Source of the DNA: a virus
Taxonomy: Duplodnaviria > Heunggongvirae > Uroviricota > Caudoviricetes
Length of the DNA stretch: 5,737 nucleotides
IMG/VR virus record: IMGVR_UViG_2667527770_000006
Span: 1 to 5,737 of that record
Direction: 5' to 3' (one strand)
Shown here: one piece after another, positions 149 to 3,349 of the stretch
Layout: each line of letters opens with the position of its first letter
Numbering within the stretch: position 1 is the first letter of the stretch
Translations under genes and position numbers: made by a program
Notes under the pieces: model-generated
Seen by the model: only the letters and a program-made list of their open reading frames with translations
Databases searched by the model: none
What the model was told of the DNA's origin: nothing

Positions 149-233
149 CCCACATTTTTTTGTTGCAATGCACACATAAAAAGATAACAATTGGATACCC
201 CTGTTACTATGTGAGCATATACAACTTGTTCAA

Positions 234-272
234 TTTCGCCATTTGGTTGCGATAGCCAAGGGCGGTAGCGTA
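234..272 (+). promoter_or_regulatory. JUMPstart-like element with ops (operon polarity suppressor) motif; predicted RfaH-dependent antitermination site in the 5' leader
   Basis: GGCGGTAGCGTA at 261-272 matches the 12-nt ops consensus GGCGGTAGCGTG at 11 of 12 positions. The preceding agccaag resembles the conserved 3' half of the JUMPstart sequence (recalled as ...AGCCAGGGGCGGTAGCGTG). It sits 44 bp upstream of the ATG at 316. The promoter itself, between the IS1 end and ops, is not confidently located. Confidence 0.65.
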
Positions 273-315
273 GTATTTTACACATAAGCAAAAAATTAAT
301 ATATAAGCAAGTCAA

Positions 316-1161
316 ATGGAAAAGATATTAACGATAGTACGACATAAACCAGGTAGGTTCCGTTTTTTATTAAGAGCATTACATTCTGTTTATAACCAAA
401 CATTCAAGGAAGTAAAAGTAGCAATATATTGCATGGGTGCTGAACAGGATCTCTCTAAAGATGAGTATTCGTATATTAACACAATCCAGGAAAAATATAA
501 CCTTAGTCTAATACCGTTCAATCAAGATGTATCAGAAATAATTAAAAAAAGTGATTGTGAATATATATGCTTTTTAGATGATGACGATACCTGGGCTCCA
601 GAGTATCTATCTCGCATTTCAAGTACGCTTACAGCGACACGTCTTAAATACCCGTCAATCAATGCCATAGCATGCCACAGTAATAAAGTGGTAGAGGTTG
701 CGGAGAGAAATAGAATAATTATTAACACAACATACCCATGGAATCATTACTTAGCAGTTGGCCCGCTTAGTTTTGATGTAATTCATTACAAGAATAGCCT
801 TCCAATTTCATCATGTTTTTTTGTTAAGAACTCAATATTTAATATTATAAATAAACATAACTTTTCTTCGCCATCTTTCTTTTGGCCCTTCTTAATTGAT
901 TATTTATCACAAAATGATCTTTGGATTCTTCCAGAACCCTTAGCATTCTATCATTTTAGAAAAAGTACCGATTTCAAGTACGGCAATTTCACAGAGATTA
1001 ACAGAGAAGAATGTGAGATTGATTATAGATTAATGATTAACAATATGATGAGAGATAGCAAAAACTCTACGCTATTAAACACACTACTATCAAACCTAAC
1101 TAATAGCAATATGGTATATAAACTATCCAACATTGAAAACAAATTAAATGAAAGAAAATAA
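316..1161 (+). CDS. Glycosyltransferase, family 2 (GT-A fold) candidate
   Basis: 281-aa ORF. FLDDDDTW (DDDD at nt 577-588) fits the GT2 hLD(S/D)DDxW DxD motif. The N-terminus ILTIVRHKPGRFRFLLRALHSVYNQTF resembles the GT-A beta1/alpha1 pattern (IP.YN...L...L.S...QT). Very AT-rich with rare codons, as in O-antigen and capsule genes. Weak Shine-Dalgarno. Confidence 0.75.
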   Translation: MEKILTIVRHKPGRFRFLLRALHSVYNQTFKEVKVAIYCMGAEQDLSKDEYSYINTIQEKYNLSLIPFNQDVSEIIKKSDCEYICFLDDDDTWAPEYLSRISSTLTATRLKYPSINAIACHSNKVVEVAERNRIIINTTYPWNHYLAVGPLSFDVIHYKNSLPISSCFFVKNSIFNIINKHNFSSPSFFWPFLIDYLSQNDLWILPEPLAFYHFRKSTDFKYGNFTEINREECEIDYRLMINNMMRDSKNSTLLNTLLSNLTNSNMVYKLSNIENKLNERK

Positions 1162-3106
1162 AATGAATATAGAAAAATATGACACGGTAAGCTTTGATAT
1201 ATTTGACACATTAGTTAGCAGGAGAATATATCGCCCAGCAGATCTTTTCTCACTAATGCAAATTGAAATAGCCAATAATTCTAATATTTTATTATCTGGC
1301 CATGAAGAAATAATAGATAACTTCGCTGAAATGAGGGTCCAGGCCGAAGTTTCAGCGAGAGCTAAACGAGTCAATAAATTCGGAGGTGAACCAGAAGTTA
1401 CTATTTTTGAAATATATGATGAAATTAAAGAGTTAAACGTTGGCATCTCAAAAGAAATTATCAACCAACTTATTCAACTGGAAATCAGCACTGAAAAAGC
1501 AGTATTATATAAAAATAATTCAGGATATAAACTATTTCAGGCAGCAGTAAAAAATGGTTCGAAAATAATTATAATAAGCGACATGTATTTCCCAACTAGT
1601 ATTTTAAAGGAATTGTTAATTTCATGCGGCTATAATGTTGATAACATCCCCATATACTCATCAGGAGAAATGCGCGCATCAAAAAATAGCGGGGAATTAT
1701 ATACTCTTATAAAAGAACGTGAGAAACCTCGTCAAAATTCTTGGCTACATGTTGGAGATAATCCTCGTTCTGATATAAGTAATGCTAAAAAACATGGAAT
1801 CCATACAATTCAAGCGGACTGGTCTGAATACGAGCATGGCACATCTTTTCATTGGAGAGCAAAAGATGTTGTTGGCGAATCATTATATAAAGCTTTATCA
1901 CTTAAACAAACCTCATCATTTTACACAAAAGATCCATTAACTGAGATTGGTTTTAAAGTATTTGGGCCTTTACTTTTAGGCTATATATCATGGATGTCAA
2001 ACCAGTTAAAAGTCCATAAAATTGATAAAGCTCTTTTCCTTGCTCGTGACGCACACTTAATTTACAAAATTTATAACAAATACTTTTCAGACGATCAGAT
2101 AGAAAGCGAATATGTGTATATTTCTCGTGCCTCTTCTTATATGATAGGTATGACAGACTGGCCAATGCATAGAATATGGCATCTTTTTGGCGGTAAAAAT
2201 AAAAAGAGTCTAAAGAAAATTCTTTCTATAGCTGGATTAGACGCCAAAAAATATATTTCAGATATACACAACGTTGGTTTTCCCAACGAGGAATATATAC
2301 CTAAACAAGGTGATGAACATAAAGTTCACTGGCTAATAAATAAACTATTTTCTAATATCTTATTAAAAAACACTCAAAATAGAAATGAGTATTCTGGTTA
2401 TTTTAAAAAAGCTTGTGGTGAACATAAAAATATTGCATTGATAGATGTTGGCTGGATGGGGAATATACAATCCGTTTTCGCTCGCTCACTTAGCGATGGC
2501 TGGGCTACTAAGAATATACACGGATTTTATTTGGCAACATTTCATGGTGCAAATGATAACCGCTCAATATACAATAAAATGTTTGGTTGGTTAGCGAACT
2601 ACGGTATACCTCAAGAAAAATGTGATCTTTTCTTTGCTGGTGGCATTGAACTGATGGAGTTCGCTATGGCTGACAACACAGGCTCCACAATAGGTTATAA
2701 AAAGACTGCTGACGGCATTATCCCCGTAAGAGAAAAAAACAGTGATTCTGAGGTTAGCTATTTAAATAAAGCACAGCGACTTCAGTCAGGAATTATTGCT
2801 TTTTTCGAATATTTACATCCTTTATTAAATAAAGAAAATATTGATGAGTTAAACAGTACAACACTGTCTGAGCCATTCTTTCAATTAGTCTCTAATCCAA
2901 CAACCTACCAAATTGAGGCATTGTCGTCACTCACTCATTCAGAATCGGTTGGAGGTAACGCGGAAAGGATTATGCTGGCAAAAAAACTACCTTTAAAAGA
3001 AAGGCTGTTCCCCGGTAAAATTTACGCATCAGAATTAGAGACCAGTTACTGGAAAGAGGGCTTCAAAAGATTAAACAGAAAGAAATTTTGGGCAAAATAC
3101 AACTAA
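1148..3106 (+). CDS. HAD-superfamily-like hydrolase domain protein with a large uncharacterised C-terminal domain (652 aa)
   Basis: The ORF overlaps the upstream gene by 14 nt, suggesting translational coupling; an alternative start is the ATG at 1163. N-terminal VSFDIFDTLV (aa 14-23) resembles HAD motif I, although in the non-canonical form DxxDT rather than DxDGT. IIIISDMYF is a plausible motif II, and HVGDNPRSD (nt ~1754-1774) fits motif IV GDx3D. Residues ~230-652 show no motif I can assign and no Walker A. Confidence 0.75.
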   Translation: MKENKMNIEKYDTVSFDIFDTLVSRRIYRPADLFSLMQIEIANNSNILLSGHEEIIDNFAEMRVQAEVSARAKRVNKFGGEPEVTIFEIYDEIKELNVGISKEIINQLIQLEISTEKAVLYKNNSGYKLFQAAVKNGSKIIIISDMYFPTSILKELLISCGYNVDNIPIYSSGEMRASKNSGELYTLIKEREKPRQNSWLHVGDNPRSDISNAKKHGIHTIQADWSEYEHGTSFHWRAKDVVGESLYKALSLKQTSSFYTKDPLTEIGFKVFGPLLLGYISWMSNQLKVHKIDKALFLARDAHLIYKIYNKYFSDDQIESEYVYISRASSYMIGMTDWPMHRIWHLFGGKNKKSLKKILSIAGLDAKKYISDIHNVGFPNEEYIPKQGDEHKVHWLINKLFSNILLKNTQNRNEYSGYFKKACGEHKNIALIDVGWMGNIQSVFARSLSDGWATKNIHGFYLATFHGANDNRSIYNKMFGWLANYGIPQEKCDLFFAGGIELMEFAMADNTGSTIGYKKTADGIIPVREKNSDSEVSYLNKAQRLQSGIIAFFEYLHPLLNKENIDELNSTTLSEPFFQLVSNPTTYQIEALSSLTHSESVGGNAERIMLAKKLPLKERLFPGKIYASELETSYWKEGFKRLNRKKFWAKYN

Positions 3107-3349
3107 TCTAAATCCATTATCTTTAAGAAGATTGATAATACTATCGGTTGTGTGTCGATAGCATCAATCTGCTTAAAAGCAATATCAATCCCATGGCCGG
3201 TAACTCTTGTATACGGTTACCGGACAAAACATACAGCTCACCAGTCAACAACTGGACAGCCGCTAAGCCAAAGAGATTGAACTCACCTCACCGGGGGTAT
3301 AGACTTGCCTTGATTCACAACAAATTGATTTCTCGAAAGAGATTTTTCT

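What the first reader, a model, noticed from the sequence alone, without database searches (positions are those of the whole stretch)
149..3110. AT-rich two-gene cassette (GT2 glycosyltransferase plus HAD-fusion protein): candidate undescribed surface-polysaccharide modification module
A sharply AT-rich block sits between IS1 and a more GC-balanced phage tail module, a classic sign of foreign cargo. It encodes a GT2 enzyme with an FLDDDDTW DxD motif, translationally coupled to a 652-aa protein that has an N-terminal HAD-like phosphatase domain and an unassignable C-terminal domain. The operon is preceded by a JUMPstart/ops-like element, which in enterobacteria marks RfaH-dependent LPS, O-antigen, capsule and similar operons. 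The gene pair does not match the familiar phage seroconversion sets (gtrABC-type, oac) or any O-antigen locus I can recall, so it may be an undescribed glycan-modification system. A glycosyl-phosphate or sugar-phosphate decoration is one speculative chemistry.
Basis: partly seen in the sequence, partly recalled or inferred. Interest (0 to 1): 0.85.

Follow-up and report, generated by a model that had tools for sequence, protein, structure and literature searches.

The report
Phage-borne ribofuranose polymer synthase pair
The two AT-rich genes are close relatives of the Salmonella T1-antigen pair that builds a ribose-sugar polymer on the end of a surface polysaccharide; here the pair rides on a prophage, in the slot where related phages carry their usual O-antigen-altering genes.

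Summary
In detail: a 3-kb block of about 32% GC lies between an IS1 end and phage tail genes, with an ops/JUMPstart element, a GT2-like ORF and a coupled 652-aa HAD-fusion ORF.

The claim that it is undescribed is not supported. ORF2 is 70% identical over its full length to Salmonella STM0726. ORF1 is 54% identical to STM0725, in the same gene order. Kelly et al. 2024 (PMC11294581) showed that STM0726 is a PRPP-dependent ribofuranosyltransferase, with a C-terminal phosphoribosyltransferase and an N-terminal HAD 5-phosphatase. It polymerises beta-(1->2)-ribofuranose onto terminal galactofuranose. STM0725 is a non-catalytic GT-A-fold partner.

Catalytic residues, folds and the missing catalytic base in ORF1 all check out here.

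The context is new. The pair is a stand-alone cassette with its own ops element. It occupies the slot that holds gtrABC in sibling prophages. It occurs in E. coli and Klebsiella. In E. coli, 6 of 8 carriers also hold a rare (55/5426) Klebsiella-type galactan-I (WbbM) island.

Best reading: a phage-borne module that caps a galactofuranose-containing O-polysaccharide with a ribofuranan. The acceptor and expression are inferred, not shown.

Verdict: new variant of a known kind; moderate interest.

The parts
1..148 (-). End of an IS1 element (terminal inverted repeat at about 126-148). It abuts the cassette at an identical junction in every copy examined.
   Evidence: Annotated as IS1 family transposase at the same position in PK8277, MIN9, YD786 and WCHEC050613. 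The junction is identical in seven loci from E. coli and other carrier assemblies (alignment A1).
149..315 (+). Leader region of the cassette. It contains the JUMPstart-like element (243-271) and the ops core GGCGGTAGCGT (261-271).
   Evidence: Pattern search found 1 match against 0.03 expected. Rfam JUMPstart scores 22.6 bits, below the gathering score. The element is invariant across copies. The same JUMPstart variant heads ABC-transporter O-antigen operons in E. coli. No convincing sigma-70 promoter lies upstream of ops (best 8/12).
316..1161 (+). ORF1, 281 aa. GT-A-fold, STM0725-like protein; predicted non-catalytic partner of ORF2. DDDD motif at residues 88-91.
   Evidence: 54% identity to the Salmonella STM0725 orthologue, E 8e-112. 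The AF2 model (pLDDT 75.6) best matches SpsA 1h7l/1qg8/1h7q, E 3e-14. It lacks the NDGG(D) motif and the Asp of the GDW motif that the second clade has.
1148..3106 (+). ORF2, 652 aa (alternative start at 1163 gives 647 aa). Dual-domain glycan ribofuranosyltransferase. The N-terminal HAD-type phosphoribose 5-phosphatase spans about residues 10-225 (nt 1175-1822), with D17 as nucleophile. The C-terminal PRPP-dependent glycan phosphoribosyltransferase spans about residues 260-652 (nt 1925-3106), with D301 and D433.
   Evidence: 70% identity over 648 aa to the STM0726 orthologue. phmmer hits PDB Bcs3 (E 4e-16) and 7SHG 'ribofuranosyl transferase' (E 1e-13). The AF2 model has pLDDT 92.3, and the only full-length Foldseek hits are Bcs3 and 7SHG. 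D17, D20, K179, D209, R300, D433 and E504 are invariant and D301 is nearly invariant in 55 homologues.
3107..3262 (+). 3' untranslated stretch that travels only with the cassette.
   Evidence: Present in all 8 E. coli carriers and absent from the gtr-carrying sibling prophages.
3263..3461 (+). Prophage backbone segment downstream of the moron slot, shared with sibling prophages that carry gtrABC instead. It contains an intrinsic terminator: hairpin 3349-3375 followed by a run of nine T at 3376-3384.
   Evidence: 97.5% identical in GDSC2239PM, I3 and E8, which have gtrA-gtrB-gtr(type)-ISKpn26 in place of the cassette. The hairpin folds at -16.5 kcal/mol, z -3.6.
3526..5476 (-). Remnant prophage tail module, convergent with the cassette. 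It comprises a truncated tail-fibre assembly gene (3526-3720), a tail fibre (3722-4606), a DUF2612 baseplate wedge gene (4588-5268) and the 3' end of a baseplate J gene.
   Evidence: PHROG and Pfam hits. Annotation under the matches in E. coli genomes.
5477..5737 (-). Second IS1 copy in the same orientation as the first, making 149-5476 an IS1-flanked segment.
   Evidence: The ORF at 5492-5737(-) is the InsB C-terminus. IS1 is annotated under the matches. The same IS1-flanked segment appears in L010.

Best explanation
Positions 149-3262 are a mobile two-gene ribofuranan (poly-ribofuranose) synthase cassette. It is homologous to STM0725-STM0726 of the Salmonella T1-antigen locus.

Proposed mechanism:
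1. ORF2 acts at the cytoplasmic face of the inner membrane on an undecaprenyl-diphosphate-linked glycan.
2. Its C-terminal phosphoribosyltransferase domain transfers ribofuranose-5-phosphate from PRPP to the non-reducing end.
3. Its N-terminal HAD domain (Asp17) removes the 5-phosphate.
4. The cycle repeats to give a beta-(1->2)-ribofuranose chain.
5. ORF1 is a GT-A-fold protein that has lost the nucleotide-binding and catalytic-base residues. It acts as the binding partner that makes ORF2 an efficient polymerase.

The ops element recruits RfaH, so the leader and both genes are read through. A terminator at 3349-3384 ends the unit.

The cassette sits in the accessory-gene slot beyond the tail-fibre assembly gene of Mu-like-tail myovirus prophages. 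Sibling prophages hold gtrABC in that slot.

The most likely acceptor is a galactofuranose-terminated O-polysaccharide made by an ABC-transporter pathway: galactan I of Klebsiella O1/O2, or of E. coli strains with the WbbM island. Lysogeny would then add a ribofuranan cap, giving a T1 / Serratia O16-like two-domain antigen, and so change serotype and phage receptors.

Shown here: homology, gene order, conserved catalytic residues, folds, ops motif, prophage slot, co-occurrence.
Inferred: PRPP donor, linkage, polymer versus single residue, acceptor identity, expression, benefit to the phage.
For: Homology to the characterised pair:
- ORF2 is 70% identical and ORF1 54% identical to the pair in L003. 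L003 is the Salmonella T1 locus: integrase, glf, GT2, GT4, wzm, wzt, a GlfT2-like gene, the pair, then nei.
- The biochemistry of STM0725/STM0726 is described in PMC11294581.

Catalytic residues and fold of ORF2:
- D17 corresponds to STM0726 D14 and Bcs3 D386. D301 corresponds to Bcs3 D680. D433 corresponds to Bcs3 E818 (alignment, mutational data, conservation).
- The only full-length structural matches are Bcs3 and 7SHG.

ORF1:
- Best structural match is SpsA.
- It lacks NDGG(D) and the GDW Asp found in the second clade.

Link to galactofuranose glycans:
- 5 of 8 chromosomal loci that hold the pair also have glf and an ABC transporter within 10 kb.
- Two of these are Serratia loci with wzm-wzt-wbbM-glf-wbbN-wbbO-...-gnd-pair-his.
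- In E. coli, 6 of 8 carriers also hold the WbbM island, which is present in 55/5426 genomes. Naive Fisher p is 2e-11; counting independent contexts gives 3e-4.

Regulation and position:
- The island is itself headed by ops.
- The cassette's slot is equivalent to that of gtrABC in sibling prophages.
- Two IMG/VR viral contigs encode an identical ORF2.

Selection: between cassette variants ORF2 shows 3-4 synonymous and 0 non-synonymous changes, while the 167-nt leader shows 6 changes.
Against: - No experiment bears on this cassette. Donor, product and acceptor are all transferred from a 70%-identical homologue.
- Two carriers lack the galactan island. MIN9 has an intact prophage and a Wzx/Wzy O176 locus with no glf. 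ET846 has ORF1 split by IS1.
- Three strains whose sibling prophage carries gtr instead also have the island. The association may therefore lie with the phage or host lineage rather than with the cassette.
- Several E. coli carriers share the yecD insertion site and may be clonally related.
- An IS1 end lies 112 nt upstream of ops in every copy, and no good promoter was found upstream of ops. Expression is therefore uncertain.
- ORF1 is broken in L010.
- The O-locus types of the Klebsiella carriers could not be examined.
Confidence: 0.65

Rival explanations
1. The same enzymes have a different outcome. The cassette adds one or a few beta-ribofuranose residues as a side branch or terminal decoration, possibly on a Wzx/Wzy-type O unit, core oligosaccharide or another glycan, rather than a long ribofuranan cap on galactan I.
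For: Most characterised dual-domain Ribf-transferases add a single residue, and STM0726 alone adds only 1-2. MIN9 carries the intact prophage and cassette but has an O176 Wzx/Wzy locus and no galactan island. ORF2's 30% divergence from STM0726 could change acceptor specificity.
Against: An intact STM0725-like partner is retained. In Salmonella this partner is what converts single addition into polymerisation. Pairs of this subfamily sit with glf and ABC-transporter genes in 5 of 8 chromosomal loci. 6 of 8 E. coli carriers have the WbbM island.
Confidence: 0.2
2. ORF1 is an active GT2 glycosyltransferase that adds a nucleotide-sugar-derived residue, ORF2 adds a second (phospho)sugar, and together they make a novel disaccharide or sugar-phosphate decoration.
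For: ORF1 passes the Pfam GT2 threshold and keeps an invariant DDDD motif. It has a GT-A fold. Kelly et al. note a second clade of STM0725-like proteins that may be active.
Against: ORF1 groups with the STM0725 clade. The NDGG(D) motif is replaced by CMGAEQD, and the Asp of the GDW motif is deleted. Only residues 8-109 align to real GT2 enzymes. STM0725 had no transferase activity with the candidate donors and is not needed for either linkage.
Confidence: 0.07
3. The cassette is silent or decaying cargo. An IS1-associated fragment captured from an O-antigen locus hitch-hikes on prophages and is not expressed or not functional in most hosts.
For: An IS1 end lies 112 nt upstream of ops in all copies, and no good promoter lies upstream of ops. 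ORF1 is disrupted in ET846 and L010. In the window and in PK8277 the surrounding prophage is a remnant. ORF1 shows as many non-synonymous as synonymous changes between variants.
Against: Both ORFs are intact in most copies. The exact ORF2 protein is recorded in 670 blocks of the assembly collection, and its 90%-identity cluster includes members named as E. coli and several Klebsiella species. ORF2 shows only synonymous changes while the flanks diverge 3-4%. The ops element and the terminator are conserved.
Confidence: 0.08

Closest known systems
Salmonella enterica T1-antigen STM0725-STM0726 (Kelly et al. 2024, Nat Commun, PMC11294581)
   Same: Same two proteins in the same order with a tight junction. 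Identity is 54% and 70%. The PRP Asp and the gPRT acidic residues are conserved. The partner is a GT-A fold without a catalytic base. An ops element is present in the operon leader.
   Different: In Salmonella the pair is the last two genes of an 8-gene chromosomal operon that also holds glf, the Galf polymerase and Wzm/Wzt, under an invertible promoter. Here the pair stands alone with its own ops element, on a prophage next to IS1, and any acceptor pathway must be supplied in trans.
Serratia marcescens / S. proteamaculans O-antigen locus with galactan-I genes plus the pair. Kelly et al. name S. marcescens O16 as a producer of a Ribf homopolymer. That the O16 galactan is identical to Klebsiella galactan I is from my memory of Szabo et al. 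1995.
   Same: ORF1-like and ORF2-like genes (39-40% and 53-54% identity) are adjacent and in the same order. They sit in one locus with wzm-wzt-wbbM-glf-wbbN-wbbO. This is the combination proposed to arise in trans in cassette-carrying hosts.
   Different: The Serratia pair is chromosomal, lies between gnd and his, and is not phage-associated. Identity is lower.
Dual-domain glycan ribofuranosyltransferases: Thermobacillus composti enzyme (PDB 7SHG, Kelly et al. 2022) and the CrpP-CriT part of Haemophilus influenzae Bcs3 (PDB 8A0C, PMC10299916)
   Same: Same two-domain architecture and fold. The residues equivalent to Bcs3 D386, D680 and E818 are conserved as D17, D301 and D433.
   Different: Only 18-19% identity. 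Those enzymes add single Ribf residues within heteropolymers and have no GT-A partner.
Klebsiella pneumoniae O1 and O2ac 'capping' polymerases encoded outside the rfb locus. The two-domain O1/O2ac antigens are described in PMC11294581; the gene names WbbY and WbmVWX are from memory.
   Same: [quoted passage not shown]
   Different: The enzymes and sugars are unrelated (Galp or Galf-GlcNAc from UDP-sugars), and they are not phage-borne.
Phage gtrABC O-antigen glucosylation cassettes (the Shigella flexneri SfV/SfX type is from memory; the E. coli sibling prophages were seen here)
   Same: Same position in the prophage. Sibling prophages with the same tail module have gtrA-gtrB-gtr(type) exactly where this cassette lies, followed by the same 199 bp and a thrW-derived att core.
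   Different: No protein homology. Gtr systems act in the periplasm through an undecaprenyl-phosphate-sugar intermediate and add single branch residues. This module would act in the cytoplasm from PRPP.

Membership tests
Dual-domain glycan ribofuranosyltransferase (PRP + gPRT; Kelly 2022, Bcs3 CrpP-CriT) | N-terminal HAD-type phosphatase with the motif-I nucleophile Asp (DxD) | tested here: met
   F16-D17-I18-F19-D20-T21. D17 aligns to STM0726 D14 and Bcs3 D386. TIGR01549 scores above its cut-off. D17, D20, K179 and D209 are invariant in 55 homologues.
Dual-domain glycan ribofuranosyltransferase (PRP + gPRT; Kelly 2022, Bcs3 CrpP-CriT) | C-terminal phosphoribosyltransferase-like (gPRT/CriT) fold | tested here: met
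   The AF2 model has pLDDT 92.3. The only full-length Foldseek PDB hits are Bcs3 8a0c/8a0m (E 2e-25) and 7shg (E 6e-23). The phmmer alignment to 7SHG spans residues 4-602.
Dual-domain glycan ribofuranosyltransferase (PRP + gPRT; Kelly 2022, Bcs3 CrpP-CriT) | Acidic residues of the transferase site (Bcs3 D680 and E818; their mutation inactivates CriT) | tested here: met
   D301 and D433 align to them (alignment, for the mutants). D433 is invariant and D301 nearly invariant.
Dual-domain glycan ribofuranosyltransferase (PRP + gPRT; Kelly 2022, Bcs3 CrpP-CriT) | Uses PRPP as donor and passes through a Ribf-5-phosphate intermediate | not testable with these tools
   This needs enzyme assays. It is inferred from the 70%-identical STM0726.
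STM0725/STM0726-type ribofuranan polymerase pair | A GT-A-like gene immediately upstream of the Ribf-transferase gene, on the same strand | tested here: met
   ORF1 is at 316-1161 and ORF2 at 1148-3106. The same order is seen in Salmonella, Serratia, Rosenbergiella, Acetobacter and Actinobacillus loci.
STM0725/STM0726-type ribofuranan polymerase pair | The partner belongs to the clade that lacks the candidate GT-A catalytic base | tested here: met
   A MAFFT alignment of 13 homologues gives two clades. The second clade has VVNDGGD and LPVLGDW. Window ORF1, STM0725, Serratia and others have CMGAEQD-type sequence and SFF-W, with the Asp absent. Only the N-terminal half aligns to real GT2 enzymes.
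STM0725/STM0726-type ribofuranan polymerase pair | [quoted passage not shown] | not testable with these tools
   No multimer prediction or assay was available. This was shown only for the Salmonella proteins.
STM0725/STM0726-type ribofuranan polymerase pair | Encoded within an ABC-transporter O-polysaccharide locus that makes a Galf-containing acceptor | tested here: not met
   Not in cis: the cassette is in a prophage slot with no glf, wzm or wzt within 10 kb, except in L010. In trans, 6 of 8 E. coli carriers hold a WbbM galactan-I island.
JUMPstart/ops (RfaH-dependent) operon leader | The ops core GGCGGTAGnnT on the non-template strand upstream of the first gene | tested here: met
   At 261-271(+), 45 nt upstream of the ORF1 ATG. 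One match found against 0.03 expected. Invariant in the aligned copies.
JUMPstart/ops (RfaH-dependent) operon leader | A match to the Rfam JUMPstart model at its gathering score | tested here: inconclusive
   RF01707 scores 22.6 bits against a gathering score of 35, E 0.15, and is the only hit in the window. A 30-38-nt stretch matches the leaders of O8/O9-family and other ABC-transporter glycan operons at 87-97% identity.
JUMPstart/ops (RfaH-dependent) operon leader | ops lies in a transcribed leader downstream of a promoter, and expression depends on RfaH | tested here: inconclusive
   The best sigma-70-like site upstream of ops scores 8/12. A 9/12 site at 277-305 lies downstream of ops. IS1 lies 112 nt upstream. 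RfaH dependence is not testable here.
   Pfam PF00535 scores above its threshold. The SpsA-like model matches at E 3e-14. DDDD at residues 88-91 is invariant.
   The DDDSSD / NDGGD of real GT2 enzymes aligns to CMGAEQD in ORF1. The Asp of the GDW motif is absent.
Phage gtrABC seroconversion cassette | GtrA flippase-like, GtrB and GT-C type proteins | tested here: not met
   No such families appear in the Pfam, NCBIfam or PHROGs scans of ORF1 and ORF2. Only the genomic position is shared.

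The most novel reading that the evidence does not exclude
A temperate-phage-borne, ops-controlled polymerase module converts the galactan-I O antigen of Klebsiella O1/O2, and of E. coli strains with the WbbM island, into a two-domain galactan-ribofuranan antigen like Salmonella T1 or Serratia O16. 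As far as the literature searches here found, this would be the first lysogenic conversion that works by cytoplasmic capping of an ABC-transporter-dependent O polysaccharide, rather than by periplasmic branching, acetylation or polymerase swapping. It would mask the epitope targeted by O1/O2 vaccines and antibodies, and locus-based O typing would miss it.
Probability: 0.4. Interest if true: 0.7.

Novelty: new variant of a known kind. Interest (0 to 1): 0.5.

Why it matters
The enzymology is already known, so the cassette is not a new chemistry. What matters is the packaging.

A complete ribofuranan-capping module has become a stand-alone unit with its own ops element. It sits in the seroconversion slot of prophages that circulate in E. 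coli and Klebsiella. The exact ORF2 protein is recorded in 670 blocks of the assembly collection. Its 90% cluster has 379 members, and the members that carry a name are mostly Klebsiella pneumoniae.

If it is active on galactan I, three consequences follow:
- It would create an unrecognised O-antigen variant in the Klebsiella serogroups that are the main targets of O-antigen vaccines and antibodies.
- It would be invisible to O typing that reads only the rfb locus.
- It would extend lysogenic conversion to ABC-transporter-type O antigens.

RefSeq still names ORF2 'HAD family hydrolase', so the function is currently hidden from annotation-based surveys.

Tried and rejected
- Cultured phage genomes (INPHARED): no nucleotide match to 149-3530. 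By tblastn there was only a 29% HAD-only hit. The phage link therefore rests on prophage context and two IMG/VR contigs.
- PLSDB plasmids: no match.
- PHROGs: nothing for ORF2 and only a weak glycosyltransferase family for ORF1. PADLOC found nothing, so an anti-phage defence system was dropped.
- Specific link between the cassette leader and the galactan-island leader. A 28-mer including ops is shared. The same JUMPstart variant occurs in 762 of 5426 E. coli genomes, for example at the head of O8/O9-family operons. The similarity was therefore rejected as evidence of common descent. It is kept only as 'a JUMPstart of the kind that heads ABC-transporter O-antigen operons'.
- Promoter search upstream of ops: nothing convincing.
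- The consensus terminator scan missed the terminator at 3349-3384 because of a stem mismatch. It was found by folding.
- The genome-contig scan with the ORF1 family returned no E. coli, Klebsiella or Salmonella representative genome. It could not be used to type the O loci of Klebsiella carriers.
- No supplementary files of PMC11294581 are held, so I could not check whether this cassette is among its 121 listed hits.

Full report
**1. What is in the window**

The window is an IS1-bounded fragment.

- Positions 1-148 are an IS1 end on the minus strand.
- 149-315 is a leader region.
- ORF1 (316-1161, 281 aa) and ORF2 (1148-3106, 652 aa) lie on the plus strand.
- A non-coding tail follows, then convergent prophage tail genes on the minus strand: a truncated tail-fibre assembly gene (3526-3720), a tail fibre (3722-4606) and a DUF2612 wedge gene (4588-5268).
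- A second IS1 begins near 5477.

GC content is 0.28-0.37 over the two ORFs and 0.43-0.55 to their right.

ORF1 passes the Pfam GT2 threshold and carries FLDDDDTW. ORF2 has an N-terminal HAD signature (TIGR01549 above its cut-off). The two ORFs overlap by 14 nt. With the alternative ATG at 1163 they are 1 nt apart.

GGCGGTAGCGT lies at 261-271, where 0.03 matches are expected. The only Rfam hit in the whole window is JUMPstart at 243-271. It scores 22.6 bits, below the gathering score of 35.

**2. The proteins are not unassignable**

A phmmer search of ORF2 against PDB sequences hit two things. One was the central part of Haemophilus influenzae Bcs3 (E 4e-16). The other, over nearly its whole length, was 7SHG, annotated 'ribofuranosyl transferase' (E 1e-13).

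A database search then found a 649-aa protein that is 70% identical over 648 residues. Its gene lies in a locus with this order: integrase, glf, GT2, GT4, wzm, wzt, a GlfT2-like gene, a 277-aa GT2-like gene, the 649-aa gene, nei, gltA. This is the Salmonella T1-antigen locus described by Kelly et al. 2024 (PMC11294581). The 277-aa protein is 54% identical to ORF1, E 8e-112.

That paper reports the following.

- STM0726 has a C-terminal glycan phosphoribosyltransferase that transfers ribofuranose-5-phosphate from PRPP. An N-terminal phosphatase, with catalytic Asp14, then removes the phosphate.
- STM0726 makes both the beta-Ribf-(1->5)-Galf link and the beta-Ribf-(1->2)-Ribf link.
- STM0725 has a GT-A fold with a DXD motif but no detectable transferase activity. 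It binds STM0726 and is required for efficient polymerisation.

[quoted passage not shown] It also says the STM0725-like proteins fall into two clades, one of which lacks the candidate catalytic base.

**3. Tests of family membership made here**

*ORF2.*

- D17 aligns with STM0726 D14 and Bcs3 D386.
- D301 and D433 align with Bcs3 D680 and E818. Mutating those residues inactivates the ribosyltransferase.
- In an alignment of 55 homologues down to 23% identity, D17, D20, K179, D209, R300, S326, R327, D433, G435, W436 and E504 are invariant. D301 is nearly invariant.
- The AlphaFold model is confident (pLDDT 92.3). Its only full-length structural matches are Bcs3 and 7SHG; every other hit covers only the HAD domain.

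*ORF1.*

- The model (pLDDT 75.6) best matches SpsA. This is the same reference Kelly et al. used for STM0725.
- A profile of the ORF1 family aligns to real GT2 enzymes only over residues 8-109. Their DDDSSD-type nucleotide-binding motif falls on CMGAEQD in ORF1.
- I aligned ORF1 with STM0725 and with eleven homologues recovered from other genomes. The alignment reproduces the two clades.
- Sequences from Novosphingobium, Chelatococcus, a Competibacteraceae MAG and an Akkermansiaceae MAG carry VVNDGGD and LPVLGDW.
- ORF1, STM0725 and the Rosenbergiella, Serratia, Actinobacillus and Acetobacter proteins have neither. The Asp before the invariant Trp is simply absent.

ORF1 is therefore best read as the non-catalytic partner, not as an active GT2 enzyme.

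**4. Genomic context: a prophage accessory slot**

Only 8 of 5426 complete E. coli genomes carry the cassette.

Where the prophage is intact, the cassette lies beyond the tail-fibre assembly gene of a myovirus with Mu-like baseplate genes (MIN9, YD786, WCHEC050613; also L005, L006, L009 and L011). It is convergent with that gene. The prophages are integrated at three different chromosomal sites: zinT/yodB, dusA and yecD.

The exact ORF2 protein is recorded in 670 blocks of the assembly collection. Its 90%-identity cluster includes many Klebsiella pneumoniae, K. quasivariicola and K. aerogenes entries and a Caudoviricetes MAG. Two IMG/VR viral contigs encode it identically. No cultured phage genome and no plasmid in the searched collections holds it.

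In every copy examined, an IS1 end abuts the leader at the same nucleotide.

Cassette-specific DNA ends at 3262. The next 199 bp (3263-3461) also occur in three E. coli genomes that lack the cassette. In the two examined, the same tail module is followed by gtrA-gtrB-gtr(type) and ISKpn26 in exactly this position. In that prophage type the shared segment is followed by 46 nt identical to the 3' end of thrW, which is an attachment-site core.

The shared segment contains a strong terminator: a hairpin at 3349-3375 of -16.5 kcal/mol (z -3.6), followed by nine U.

The cassette thus occupies the slot that classical O-antigen glucosylation operons occupy in sibling phages.

**5. What might it act on?**

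The pair cannot make a polysaccharide alone. It needs a lipid-linked acceptor and an exporter.

*Evidence from chromosomal homologues.* Five of eight loci that hold the pair also hold glf and an ABC transporter within 10 kb.

- Salmonella T1.
- Two Serratia loci with wzm-wzt-wbbM-glf-wbbN-wbbO-...-gnd-pair-his.
- Actinobacillus equuli, with a GlfT2-like gene.
- An Akkermansiaceae MAG.

Kelly et al. name Serratia marcescens O16 as a producer of a Ribf homopolymer. That its other polymer is identical to Klebsiella galactan I is from my memory of the older literature.

*Evidence from E. coli carriers.* One locus (L010) has the same IS1-flanked segment as this window about 6 kb from a wzm-wzt-DUF4422/GT8 cluster.

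- In WCHEC050613 that cluster reads wzm, wzt, DUF4422 protein, glf and three glycosyltransferases. It sits on an integrase-bearing island.
- The DUF4422 protein matches PDB 6U4B 'WbbM protein' at 1082 bits.
- The island is present in 55 of 5426 E. coli genomes.
- It is present in 6 of the 8 cassette carriers: PK8277, PK8217, YD786, W444, WCHEC050613 and PI12.
- A naive Fisher test gives p = 2e-11. Counting only independent insertion contexts gives p = 3e-4.
- The island's operon is itself headed by ops.

**6. Caveats on the acceptor inference**

- The three strains whose sibling prophage carries gtr instead of the cassette also have the island. The association may belong to the phage lineage (for example, a galactan-I receptor) or to a host lineage, rather than to the cassette.
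- Several carriers share the yecD insertion site and may be related.
- MIN9 has the intact prophage and cassette but an O176 Wzx/Wzy locus without glf, and no island.
- In ET846 and L010, ORF1 is disrupted.
- The O loci of Klebsiella carriers could not be examined with these tools.
- The 28-nt identity between the cassette leader and the island leader is not specific. The same JUMPstart variant occurs in 762 E. coli genomes, including at the heads of O8/O9-family operons.

**7. Expression**

The ops element is conserved. However, I found no convincing sigma-70 promoter between the IS1 end and ops (best 8/12). The better-scoring site at 277-305 lies downstream of ops. Where transcription starts, and whether IS1 contributes, is open.

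Variation between the two cassette variants hints at selection on ORF2. ORF2 shows 3-4 synonymous and 0 non-synonymous changes in 1959 nt, against 6 changes in the 167-nt leader. ORF1 has 3 synonymous and 2-4 non-synonymous changes. These counts are too small for a formal test.

**8. Verdict**

It is a surface-polysaccharide module under an ops element on foreign DNA, and a sugar-phosphate intermediate is involved. It is not an undescribed system: it is a close homologue, with identical gene order, of a pair characterised biochemically in 2024.

The most likely function is PRPP-dependent synthesis of a beta-(1->2)-ribofuranan on a Galf-terminated, ABC-transporter-exported O polysaccharide.

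- Confidence about 0.95 that ORF2 is a ribofuranosyltransferase-phosphatase.
- About 0.7 that the pair polymerises.
- About 0.5 that galactan I is the acceptor.
- 0.65 for the explanation as a whole.

The new element is the packaging: a stand-alone phage cassette in the gtr slot. I found no paper that describes this, apart from the one clause in Kelly et al.. Novelty: new variant of a known kind. Interest 0.5.

Noticed in passing
L012 (NZ_CP019213.3 2880157-2908254), genes at locus 7192-15094; also L010:1-3094: A complete Klebsiella-type galactan-I gene set (wzm, wzt, WbbM at 1082 bits to PDB 6U4B, glf, three glycosyltransferases) sits on an integrase-bearing island next to ycdU and an Ag43 gene. 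It is found in 55 of 5426 complete E. coli genomes, six times on plasmids, at 99.8-100% identity in 54 of the 55. It could be a second lipid A-core-linked glycan in E. coli, analogous to Salmonella T1. I found no paper on it.
   Followed up: partly
L021:3010-6853 and L022:4141-6853: Sibling prophages with the same tail-fibre assembly, tail, YmfQ and baseplate J module carry gtrA-gtrB-gtr(type) plus ISKpn26 in the slot where this window has the ribofuranan cassette. All three such E. coli strains also carry the galactan-I island. Whether this gtr set modifies galactan I is unknown.
   Followed up: partly
L017:11472-11517 and L021:7209-7254 (continuation after window position 3461 in that prophage type): 46 nt are identical to the 3' end of thrW, tRNA-Thr(CGU). 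This is an attachment-site core lying just downstream of the accessory-gene slot, although these prophages now sit at yecD or dacD/sbmC rather than at thrW. The window itself lacks this piece, because its sequence diverges at 3461.
   Followed up: partly
window 1-148 and 5477-5737; L010:8251-15040: The window is flanked by two IS1 copies in the same orientation, giving a composite-transposon-like segment. The same IS1-flanked segment occurs in L010 between the galactan-I island and a YeeP/Ag43 region, but there ORF1 is broken into 86-aa and 157-aa pieces.
   Followed up: partly
window 149 (IS1/leader junction), alignment A1: The IS1 end abuts the cassette leader at exactly the same nucleotide in every copy aligned (the window plus L004, L005, L008-L011). 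This holds whatever the downstream tail module or chromosomal site. The IS1 insertion therefore predates the spread, and IS1 may have delivered the cassette into the phage or may supply its transcription.
   Followed up: partly
L046:4001-4031, L047:4001-4038: The JUMPstart variant of the cassette (ATTTGGTTGCGATAGCCAAGGGCGGTAGCGT) matches the leaders of two E. coli operon types at 87-97% identity. One is the O8/O9-family manC-manB-wzm-wzt operon. The other is an island-borne GT4-ABC-transporter glycan cluster. It occurs in 762 of 5426 genomes in all.
   Followed up: partly
L007:5471-8408 (E. coli ET846): In ET846, ORF1 is interrupted by an IS1, and a sulfatase-family gene lies between the pieces of the cassette. 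ORF2 remains intact.
   Followed up: no
L025, L027, L028, L029 (Novosphingobium, Chelatococcus): The second-clade STM0725-like proteins retain the canonical GT2 motifs. In these alphaproteobacteria they are the N-terminal third of 788-886-aa proteins with a large unassigned C-terminal region. No ORF2-like gene lies within 10 kb.
   Followed up: no
window 3526-3720 (-): The tail-fibre assembly gene is truncated to 64 aa where the window's sequence departs from the MIN9-type prophage (about 3531). The tail module in the window is a recombinant remnant rather than part of a functional phage.
   Followed up: no
window 1148-3106: RefSeq names this protein 'HAD family hydrolase' and GenBank entries call it 'glycosyl transferase'. 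No Pfam, NCBIfam or PHROG model covers the C-terminal phosphoribosyltransferase domain. Annotation-based surveys will therefore miss this enzyme family.
   Followed up: yes
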